NCBI RefSeq assembly: GCF_009914755.1
Contig: NC_060932.1
Origin: the human T2T-CHM13v2.0 reference genome, Homo sapiens
Reading direction: 5' to 3' (one strand)
DNA length: 64,000 bases
Shown here: one piece after another, positions 62,342-63,630 of the stretch
How the letters are laid out: each line of letters begins with the position of its first letter
Numbering within the stretch: position 1 is the first letter of the stretch
Notes under the pieces: model-generated
Databases searched by the model: none
What the model was told of the DNA's origin: nothing
What the model saw: the letters and a program-made list of their open reading frames with translations, nothing else
Position numbers and translations under genes: made by a program

Positions 62342-63630
62342 CACTGAGCCTCAGGGACATTATGACATTTATCCAGAACTTCCAACACTATGTTGAATAG
62401 GAGTGGTGAGAGAGGGCATCCCTGTCTTGTGCCAGTTTTCAAGGGAATGCTTCCAGTTTTTGCCCATTCAGTATGATATTGGCTGTGGGTTTGTCATAGA
62501 TAGCTCTTATTATTTTGAAATACGTCCCATCAATACCTAATTTATTGAGAGTTTTTAGCATGAAGGGTTGTTGAATTTTGTCAAAGGCTTTTTCTGCATC
62601 TATTGAGATAATCATGTGGTTTTTGTCTTTGGCTCTGTTTATATGCTGGATTACATTTATTGATTTGCGTATATTGAACCAGCCTTGCATCCCAGGGATG
62701 AAGCCCACTTGATCATGGTGGATAAGCTTTTTGATGTGCTGCTGGATTCGGTTTGCCAGTATTTTGTTGAGGATTTTTGCATCAATGTTCATCAAGGATA
62801 TTGGTCTAAGATTCTCTTTTTTTGTTGTGTCTCTGCCTGGCTTTGGTATCAGAATGATGCTGGCCTCATAAAATGAGTTAGGGAGGATTCCCTCTTTTTC
62901 TATTGATTGGAATAGTTTCAGAAGGAATGGTACCAGTTCCTCCTTGTAGCTCTGGTAGAATTTGGCTGTGAATCCATCTGGTCCTGGACTCTTTTTGGTT
63001 GGTAAGCTATTGATTATTGCCACAATTTCAGCTCCTGTTATTGGTGTATTCAGAGATTCAACTTCTTCCTGGTTTAGTCTTGGGAGAGTGTATGTGTCCA
63101 GGAATTTATCAATTTCTTCTAGATTTTCTAGTTTATTTGCGTAGAGGTGTTTGTAGTATTCCCTGATGGTAGTTTGTATTTCTGTGGGATCGGTGGTGAT
63201 ATCCCCTTTATCATTTTTTATTGCGTCTATTTGATTCTTCTCTCTTTTTTTCTTTATTAGTCTTGCTAGCGGTCTATCAATTTTGTTGATCCTTTCAAAA
63301 AACCAGCTCCTGGATTCATTAATTTTTTGAAGGGTTTTTTGTGTCTCTATTTCCTTCAGTTCTGCTCTGATTTTAGTTATTTCTTGCCTTCTGCTAGGTT
63401 TTGAATGCGTTTGCTCTTGCTTTTCTAGTTCTTTTAATTGTGATGTTAGGGTGTCAATTTTGAATCTTTCCTGCTTTCTCTTGTGGGCATTTAGTGCTAT
63501 AAATTTCCCTCTACACACTGCTTTGAATGCGTCCCAGAGATTCTGGACATTAATCCAAGAAAACCCAGCTCATAGCAGAGCCAGGCCTTGAACCCAGATC
63601 TCAATTTTAAGTCTGGGTTTCCTTTTACAG
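62342..63630 (-). mobile_element. MIR split by the L1 fragment (62342-62372 + 63547-63630)
   Basis: ACTGAGCCTCAGGGA...ATCCAAGAAAACCCAGCT...GCAGAGCCAGGCCTTGAACCCAG joins into one MIR core when the L1 is removed. Confidence 0.65.
62373..63546 (-). mobile_element. Internal L1PA2/3 ORF2 fragment, truncated at both ends, no poly(A)
   Basis: Colinear with 24899-26074 (~23 differences by eye); 359-aa ORF2 piece; flanks GACATTTATCCA/GACATTAATCCA. Confidence 0.96.

What the first reader, a model, noticed from the sequence alone, without database searches (positions are those of the whole stretch)
62364..63557. Tail-less L1 insertion with TSD and microhomology: internal priming / non-classical insertion
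Seen: the L1 piece (approx. L1 nt 2840-4015, ending before the FADD motif) has no 3'UTR or poly(A). It still sits between 12-bp duplicates GACATTTATCCA (62364-62375) and GACATTAATCCA (63546-63557) inside a MIR that rejoins cleanly. CCA at the 3' junction and G at the 5' junction are shared with L1, and there is no TTTT/AA site. So it was inserted as a fragment rather than eroded by deletion. Inference: a staggered break primed internally on L1 RNA, or DNA-templated repair.
Basis: partly seen in the sequence, partly recalled or inferred. Interest (0 to 1): 0.7.

Follow-up and report, generated by a model that had tools for sequence, protein, structure and literature searches.

The report
Tail-less L1 fragment with target duplication
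A 1.17-kb middle piece of a young human L1 element sits inside an old repeat between a real 12-bp target duplication but has no tail, so it most likely entered as a fragment by an uncommon but already described kind of insertion.

Summary
Window 62376-63545 is L1 ORF2 (ORF2p residues 285-675 of 1275), antisense on the + strand. It has no 3' end and no poly(A). GACATTTATCCA (62364-75) and GACATTAATCCA (63546-57) flank it. CCA and G at the junctions are shared with L1.

A profile built from 29 other copies of the flanking repeat runs straight through a one-copy reconstruction. It needs a 12-nt insert if both copies are kept. So the duplication is real and the piece was inserted as a fragment.

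Both candidate nick sites differ from TTTT/A at 2-3 of 5 positions. The L1 RNA past the truncation point is not A-rich.

Best reading (0.6): a target 3'-OH annealed by 3 nt inside L1 RNA and primed reverse transcription at a 12-nt staggered break. This could be first-nick internal priming or a twin-priming event that kept only its inverted arm.

It fails a defining feature of each published class: endonuclease-independent (needs no TSD), internal priming (needs an A-rich site), and poly(T) twin-priming variants.

I tested a DNA copy from the full-length L1 37 kb upstream. The two uniquely share two rare variants, but they differ at two common lineage markers. A short gene-conversion tract fits that better than a donor relation.

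No orthologous empty site could be examined. This is a new member of a known kind, of modest interest.

The parts
62364..62375 (+). Left copy of the 12-bp target-site duplication, GACATTTATCCA. Its last 3 nt (CCA, 62373-75) could equally come from L1.
   Evidence: The T at 62370 agrees with the family profile at that column.
62376..63545 (-). L1 ORF2 fragment, sense on the - strand. It encodes ORF2p residues 285-675 and is truncated at both ends. There is no 3' UTR and no poly(A).
   Evidence: It differs from the majority of its 30 nearest genomic relatives at 11 of 1170 positions.
62440..62440 (.). Private 1-nt deletion that shifts the ORF2 frame. It is the only frame break in the piece.
   Evidence: (0 of 30 relatives share it)
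63546..63557 (+). Right copy of the duplication, GACATTAATCCA. Its first G could equally come from L1. The A at 63552 is the derived state.
62343..62375 (+). Left arm of the interrupted old interspersed repeat (MIR by recall).
   Evidence: Profile alignment: positions 76-108 of the reconstruction, which starts at 62268.
63558..63621 (+). Right arm of the same repeat, including the 20-mer core at 63578-63597.
62854..63082 (.). Largest possible tract (smallest: 62949-63046) in which the fragment and the upstream L1 share two rare transversions. Probable ectopic gene conversion.
   Evidence: A run-length permutation test did not support it.
24899..26074 (-). The homologous stretch of the full-length L1 37 kb upstream (element 21492-28912). 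It was used as L1 reference and tested as donor.

Best explanation
This is an RNA-templated, non-canonical L1 insertion.

Proposed steps. The target, inside an old repeat, was opened by two nicks 12 nt apart. The + strand 3'-OH ending ...ATCCA annealed through CCA to UGG inside ORF2 of an L1 RNA, at about codon 675. No poly(A) was involved. L1 reverse transcriptase extended it to about codon 285. The cDNA end was joined to the other side through a single shared G. Filling in the 12-nt stagger made the duplication.

Two versions cannot be told apart. In one, this 3'-OH was the first nick. In the other, it was the second (top-strand) primer of a twin-priming event whose poly(A)-primed arm was lost, leaving only the inverted arm.

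What is shown: the anatomy, the duplication, the microhomologies, the lack of a tail, and the poor match to the endonuclease motif. What is inferred: an RNA template, who made the nicks, and the order of events.
For: 1. The 12-bp duplication is real and the flanking repeat is collinear, with no target loss.
2. There is a 3-nt overlap at the L1 3' junction and a 1-nt overlap at the 5' junction. My own arithmetic: 3 nt or more by chance is about 1 in 64.
3. [quoted passage not shown] The same paper puts the TSD peak of full-length L1 at 14-16 bp and sees the TT/AAAA preference at TSDs of 10 bp or more (passages).
4. Meyer 2010 describes 39 loci of truncated L1 between TSDs with significant microhomology at the L1 3' junction. 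They read them as twin priming with a very short non-inverted arm. This locus is the zero-length limit of that series.
5. The piece has one open 368-codon frame, with 9 of 368 residues differing from human ORF2p in 8uw3. It differs from its family majority at 11 of 1170 positions. That is what a copy of a then-active element would look like.
6. No extant genomic copy qualifies as a DNA donor. The best of the 40 copies scored (of 4113 candidates) differ at 17 positions and share none of the fragment's rarest states.
Against: 1. Neither candidate nick resembles TTTT/A: 2-3 of 5 positions differ. In Meyer's loci the nick beside the tail was almost canonical.
2. There is no poly(T)/poly(A) remnant at all.
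3. The L1 RNA just past the truncation point is not A-rich: 3 A in 10, 6 in 20. This differs from published internal priming.
4. Nothing here separates an RNA template from a DNA template.
5. No empty orthologous site was seen.
Confidence: 0.6

Rival explanations
1. Endonuclease-independent capture. A pre-existing staggered break, not made by L1 endonuclease, was bridged by L1 RNA through microhomology and copied by L1 reverse transcriptase.
For: The piece is truncated at both ends, has no tail, sits at a non-consensus site and has junction microhomology. These are the hallmarks listed by Sen 2007 and Hancks and Kazazian 2016.
Against: [quoted passage not shown] Here there is a clean 12-bp duplication and no loss. 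None of their 21 loci is on chromosome 8.
Confidence: 0.17
2. DNA-templated repair (SDSA or template switching). A broken or stalled 3' end annealed by microhomology to an existing genomic L1, copied 1.17 kb and returned 12 nt behind its point of departure. The full-length L1 37 kb upstream in the same orientation is the obvious donor.
For: Microhomology at both junctions, no tail, no endonuclease motif.

The fragment and the upstream L1 are the only 2 places in the genome that hold both rare 25-mers. One occurs 15 times against 3617 for the common form. The other occurs 80 times against 5679. The product of the frequencies is 5.3e-5.

Sen 2007 lists SDSA as a possible route.
Against: The two copies differ at 23 of 1176 positions.

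Two of those differences are common non-CpG family polymorphisms: 62751 G against T (20:11 among the 31 aligned sequences) and 63162 C against T (12:19). That places them in different source lineages.

The upstream L1 ranks about 34th of the 40 scored matches to the fragment. The fragment ranks 11th of 40 for the upstream L1.

The shared variants lie in one tract of 98-229 bp, so a later short gene conversion explains them. No other donor was found among the copies scored.
Confidence: 0.12
3. Post-insertion deletion. An ordinary twin-primed L1 (inverted arm, direct arm, poly(A)) lost the direct arm and tail by a later deletion ending at or just inside the right TSD copy.
For: The orientation fits: the retained piece lies where the inverted arm of a twin-primed element read on the + strand would lie. 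A nested twin-primed L1 in the same window shows how common that architecture is.
Against: The deletion would have to remove every A of the tail and stop within a few bases of the TSD boundary. Only 1 nt of overlap lies at that junction. Sen 2007 argues the same for their loci.
Confidence: 0.04
4. The 12-mers match by chance, and the L1 piece is a remnant with no target duplication.
For: The left flank holds a near-repeat, GACATTAT followed by GACATTTAT, so the motif is locally reiterated.
Against: The background rate is 30 in 3,653,567. The family profile needs a 12-nt insert to accommodate the second copy.
Confidence: 0.01

Closest known systems
Twin-priming variants with an inverted poly(A) tail (Meyer, Srikanta, Conlin, Batzer 2010, PMC2837659; abstract and section 4 parts 2-3 read)
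   Same: A truncated L1 lies between TSDs. There is microhomology at the L1 3' junction, where a top-strand 3'-OH primed inside the RNA. The non-inverted arm is reduced to almost nothing.
   Different: Their 39 loci keep a poly(T) stretch at the L1 5' end and have a near-canonical cleavage site beside it. Here there is no T or A run, and that nick (TGTC/A) differs from TTTT/A at 2 of 5 positions.
Internal priming (Srikanta et al. 2009, not held; known here only from the description in Hancks and Kazazian 2016, PMC4859970, passages)
   Same: The insertion is 3'-truncated, with first-strand synthesis started inside the RNA, not at the tail. TSDs are present.
   Different: The published description has an internal A-rich RNA stretch pairing with a T-rich target overhang. 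Here the RNA past the truncation has 3 A in 10 nt, and the primer ends ...ATCCA.
Endonuclease-independent / non-classical L1 insertion (Sen et al. 2007, PMC1920257; Results part 1 and Discussion read)
   Same: Truncated at both ends, no tail, non-consensus site, junction microhomology.
   Different: That class is defined by absence of TSDs and mostly carries target deletions. This locus has a 12-bp TSD and no deletion. It is not among their 21 loci.
Tailless retropseudogenes (Schmitz 2004 as cited; Noll et al. 2015, PMC5322556, passages; Kojima 2010, PMC2912911, passages)
   Same: 3'-truncated, without an A-rich tail, flanked by TSDs, and explained by internal priming with target-RNA complementarity.
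   Different: They were described for tRNA, snRNA, 5S, 7SK, mRNA and similar RNAs, with an A-rich target motif. Here the template is L1 itself and the target is not A-rich at the nick.
Non-canonical mobile-element insertions in long-read population data (PMC12350158, passages)
   Same: That survey classed 15.73% (5,523) of its mobile-element insertions as non-canonical. Among these, 34.4% are 3'-truncated and 66.4% lack poly(A).
   Different: That heap is not resolved by mechanism and may include later rearrangements. I did not look at its supplementary tables.

Membership tests
LINE-1 (ORF2 sequence) | Sequence homology to L1 ORF2 / ORF2p | tested here: met
   The 368-aa translation matches ORF2p residues 285-652 (E 6e-236, 8uw3). 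A further 29 aa match up to residue 675. It is 98.0% identical to the in-window L1.
Classical TPRT insertion | 3' end of L1 with a poly(A) tail next to one TSD copy | tested here: not met
   There is no A or T run at either junction. L1 ends inside ORF2.
Classical TPRT insertion | Target-site duplication of typical length | tested here: met
   12 bp with 1 mismatch. It is real by the profile test. The range is given.
Classical TPRT insertion | Cleavage site close to 5'-TTTT/A-3' | tested here: not met
   2-3 of 5 positions differ on either strand, at every junction ambiguity.
Endonuclease-independent / NCLI (Sen 2007) | [quoted passage not shown] | tested here: not met
   A 12-bp TSD is present. 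The criterion is quoted.
Endonuclease-independent / NCLI (Sen 2007) | 3' truncation, no poly(A), deviation from the endonuclease consensus | tested here: met
Endonuclease-independent / NCLI (Sen 2007) | Target-site deletion (18 of their 21 loci; frequent, not strictly defining) | tested here: not met
   The flanking repeat is collinear across the junction. The one 4-nt gap against the profile is placed after the junction, and its position is ambiguous in so old a repeat.
Internal priming (as described in PMC4859970) | Internal A-rich RNA stretch pairing with a T-rich target overhang | tested here: not met
   The L1 sense sequence after the last copied base has 3 A in 10 nt and 6 in 20. The primer ends ...ATCCA.
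Internal priming (as described in PMC4859970) | 3'-truncated insert between TSDs | tested here: met
Poly(T) twin-priming variants (Meyer 2010) | [quoted passage not shown] | tested here: not met
   The L1 5' junction joins the 12-mer directly.
Poly(T) twin-priming variants (Meyer 2010) | Microhomology at the L1 3' junction | tested here: met
   3 nt: CCA on the + strand, TGG in the L1 sense.
Poly(T) twin-priming variants (Meyer 2010) | Near-canonical cleavage site at the reverse-complemented 5' junction | tested here: not met
   TGTC/A has 2 differences; ATGT/C has 3.
DNA-templated insertion from a nearby donor (SDSA / MMBIR) | An identifiable donor that shares the insert's private and lineage states over its whole length | tested here: not met
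   The upstream L1 shares 2 rare states but conflicts at 2 common lineage markers. It is not the closest copy overall. No other donor was found among the 40 copies scored.
DNA-templated insertion from a nearby donor (SDSA / MMBIR) | Microhomology at both junctions | tested here: met
   3 nt and 1 nt, measured against the upstream L1 sequence itself.

The most novel reading that the evidence does not exclude
The locus is an 'inverted-arm-only' twin-priming product. L1 nicked both strands, but only the top-strand 3'-OH, annealed by 3 nt inside ORF2 RNA, produced cDNA. The first nick was sealed to that cDNA with no poly(A) synthesis at all. This outcome falls through every published screen: those for ENi require no TSD, those for internal priming an A-rich site, those for twin-priming variants a poly(T). 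A bolder add-on: the single-stranded cDNA intermediate was patched at the time of insertion from the homologous L1 37 kb away, which would explain the two uniquely shared variants.
Probability: 0.3. Interest if true: 0.45.

Novelty: new member of a known kind. Interest (0 to 1): 0.3.

Why it matters
Tail-less, doubly truncated L1 pieces are usually filed either as decayed elements or as endonuclease-independent break repair. This locus has a clean 12-bp duplication, no tail, no A-rich priming site and a poor endonuclease motif. It therefore lies between the published categories.

It shows that their screening criteria leave a gap: no TSD, an A-rich site, or a poly(T) run. A census built on this anatomy could show how often L1 reverse transcription starts from a few base pairs of chance complementarity. 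It could also show how many 'non-canonical' insertions in long-read catalogues are of this type.

As a single old fixed insertion in an intron of a lncRNA, it has no evident functional consequence.

Tried and rejected
1. Donor hypothesis. The full-length L1 37 kb upstream looked like the template: it was the best genome match over a 126-nt stretch and uniquely shares two rare 25-mers. I rejected it as whole-fragment donor after (two lineage-marker conflicts; not the closest copy in either direction).

2. My Sawyer-type run test for gene conversion gave no support. The pair frag-upstream L1 ranked 78th of 465 pairs, and 3473 of 5000 column permutations reached the observed score. The run is cut by a CpG transition at 62963 between the two shared sites. 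The sample frequencies (2 of 31 and 4 of 31) also understate the genome-wide rarity. The gene-conversion reading therefore rests on the genome counts alone.

3. The 23 differences look clustered (1, 6, 1 and 15 in four segments). My own chi-square against family rates gives p about 0.02, but the segments were chosen after seeing the data, so I make nothing of it.

4. Finding other copies of the flanking repeat: nhmmer with the reconstructed empty site against the rest of the window found nothing at E up to 10. Whole-genome DNA searches with the left flank and the right flank found only the locus itself. A 20-mer pattern search worked.

6. The internal-priming paper (Srikanta 2009) is not held by DOI or by PMC id. 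I know its class only through a review.

7. One search failed on the server side and was repeated. Searches were syntax errors in search terms.

8. No orthologous primate sequence is reachable with these tools, so the empty-site test was not run.

Full report
**What is there**

The + strand from 62376 to 63545 is antisense L1. Aligned to the L1 copy in the same window (24899-26074, 98.0% identity), homology starts at CCA (62373-75) and ends at G (63546). On both sides the window and the L1 copy then diverge completely.

The - strand carries one open frame of 376 codons across the piece. Its 368 L1 codons match human ORF2p residues 285-652 with 9 differences (8uw3, E 6e-236). After a private 1-nt deletion at 62440 (0 of 30 relatives share it) the match continues to residue 675.

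It stops short of the FADD motif, whose position is recalled. There is no 3' UTR, and no A or T run lies at either junction.

**Is the duplication real?**

GACATTTATCCA (62364-75) and GACATTAATCCA (63546-57) are at the stated places. In this window a 12-mer repeated with at most one mismatch at a fixed offset occurs in 30 of 3,653,567 position pairs.

The flanks belong to an old interspersed repeat. A 20-mer of the right flank has 570 genome matches with up to 2 mismatches, against 0 for the reversed control. I call it MIR from memory; no repeat library was available.

From 29 fetched copies, with this locus left out, I built a profile. It aligns the reconstructed site with one 12-mer collinearly through the junction (41.0 bits). 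The version with both 12-mers scores 34.0 bits and needs a 12-nt insertion. The profile has t at the mismatched column, so the right copy's A is derived. A 4-nt gap against the profile is placed just after the junction, but its position is ambiguous in so diverged a repeat.

The piece therefore went in as a fragment at a 12-nt staggered opening, without loss of target.

**Age**

Against the majority state of its 30 nearest genomic relatives (the 29 fetched loci L003-L031 from the 40 places scored of 4113 candidates, plus the in-window L1), the piece differs at 11 of 1170 positions. This sample is biased toward similarity. By recalled primate substitution rates, this is of the order of 10 million years. 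An empty site should therefore exist in some apes or monkeys. One mismatch in 24 TSD bases is compatible with that age.

**Nick sites and priming site**

The + strand nick that would leave ...ATCCA-3' reads TCCA/A. Sliding it over the 3-nt ambiguity gives ATCC/A, TATC/C and TTAT/C. The - strand nick reads TGTC/A or ATGT/C. All differ from TTTT/A at 2-3 of 5 positions.

The L1 sense sequence beyond the last copied base has 3 A in 10 nt and 6 in 20. Beyond the shared TGG it shows no further run of identity with the target.

**A donor next door?**

The window holds a full-length L1 in the same orientation, 37 kb upstream. It runs from 21492 to 28912, with an exact 15-bp TSD at 21477-91 and 28919-33.

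Evidence for a special relation:
- Over a 126-nt stretch it is the best match in the genome to the fragment.
- The 25-mer around 62949 with G occurs 15 times in the genome, against 3617 for the common form.
- The 25-mer around 63046 with G occurs 80 times, against 5679.
- Comparing the two lists at the 97-nt spacing, only the fragment and this L1 hold both. The product of the frequencies is 5.3e-5, and about 0.2 double carriers are expected genome-wide.

Evidence against it as donor of the whole piece:
- The two differ at 23 of 1176 positions.
- The upstream L1 ranks about 34th of 40 scored matches to the fragment. The fragment ranks 11th of 40 for the upstream L1.
- They differ at two common, non-CpG family polymorphisms: 62751 G against T (20:11 among the 31 aligned sequences) and 63162 C against T (12:19).
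- Those two sites travel together. In the younger group of copies the combinations are G-C 9, T-T 8, T-C 3 and G-T 4.
- The fragment is G-C and the upstream L1 is T-T, so they come from different source lineages.

The two shared rare states lie in one tract, bounded by differences at 62853 and 63083 (98-229 bp). It is interrupted only by a CpG transition at 62963. A short ectopic gene conversion, or patching at the time of insertion, fits this best.

My run-length permutation test did not support it: the pair ranked 78th of 465, and 3473 of 5000 permutations reached the score. This side claim therefore rests on the genome-wide counts.

**Comparison with the literature**

- Sen 2007 defined endonuclease-independent insertions by 3' truncation, no tail, a non-consensus site and absence of any TSD. 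Of their 21 loci, 18 carry deletions and none is on chromosome 8 (Results part 1; Discussion). This locus fails the TSD criterion.
- Hancks and Kazazian 2016 describe internal priming as an internal A-rich RNA stretch pairing with a T-rich overhang (passages). That is not met here. The primary paper is not held.
- Meyer 2010 describe 39 truncated L1s between TSDs with a 5' poly(T), microhomology at the L1 3' junction and a canonical nick beside the poly(T). They read them as twin priming with a minimal non-inverted arm. This locus has that geometry and the microhomology, but no poly(T) and a poor nick motif.
- Tailless retropseudogenes are 3'-truncated, tail-less and TSD-flanked, and are explained by internal priming (Noll 2015, passages; Kojima 2010, passages). 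Kojima reports short microhomologies at such 3' junctions and a TSD peak of 14-16 bp for L1.
- A long-read survey of 1,019 people classed 15.73% of mobile-element insertions as non-canonical. Many of these are 3'-truncated or tail-less (passages).

The kind is therefore known. This member sits between the named subclasses.

**Verdict**

Most likely (0.6) a target 3'-OH annealed by three bases inside ORF2 RNA and primed L1 reverse transcription at a 12-nt staggered break. This was either a first-nick event or the surviving inverted arm of a twin-priming event.

Rivals:
- Endonuclease-independent capture at a pre-existing staggered break: 0.17.
- DNA-templated copying: 0.12. Most of that is for an unidentified donor; the upstream L1 as whole donor is unlikely.
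- Later deletion of a tail-bearing arm: 0.04.
- Chance: 0.01.

RNA and DNA templates cannot be separated with the data in hand, and the orthologous empty site was not available. Interest is modest: one old, fixed, apparently inconsequential insertion. It is still a clean specimen for a class that current screens miss.

Noticed in passing
window 62949 and 63046 (fragment); 25476 and 25573 approx. (upstream L1): The L1 fragment and the full-length L1 37 kb upstream are the only two places in the genome that carry both of two rare C-to-G states. The 25-mers occur 15 against 3617 and 80 against 5679 times. Yet the two copies belong to different source lineages. This is probably a short ectopic gene conversion of 98-229 bp. 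My permutation test on run length did not support it.
   Followed up: yes
window 21477-28933: A full-length L1, antisense on the + strand, with an exact 15-bp TSD GAGTACAATGCTTTC (21477-91 and 28919-33). Six extra bases lie between its 5' end and the right TSD copy.
   Followed up: partly
window 23149-24549: A second L1 piece is nested inside that full-length L1, with twin-priming architecture. The inverted arm is 24058-24537 and the direct arm about 23270-24058. Then come an interrupted poly(T) at 23220-70, 26 unique bases and a 35-T run at 23159-93, which looks like a short 3' transduction. It is flanked by a 14-bp duplication TTGTATCCTCTTTT (23149-62 and 24536-49).
   Followed up: partly
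window 62356-62372: The left flank holds a near-tandem GACATTAT followed by GACATTTAT just before and within the left TSD copy. The first unit matches the right TSD copy's first 7 bases exactly. It is not explained and could be chance in a diverged repeat.
   Followed up: no
L013 and L024 (G000 C3:190243866-190245036 + and C3:190232397-190233567 -): Two L1 copies 11 kb apart in opposite orientation share 3 rare states and the longest concordant run of all 465 pairs. This is likely an inverted duplication or conversion pair.
   Followed up: no
L053 and L054 (G000 C5:176494377 and C5:178437474): Two copies of the flanking-repeat family, 1.9 Mb apart and in opposite orientation, are almost identical over the 250 nt aligned, flanks included. 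This suggests a segmental duplication.
   Followed up: no
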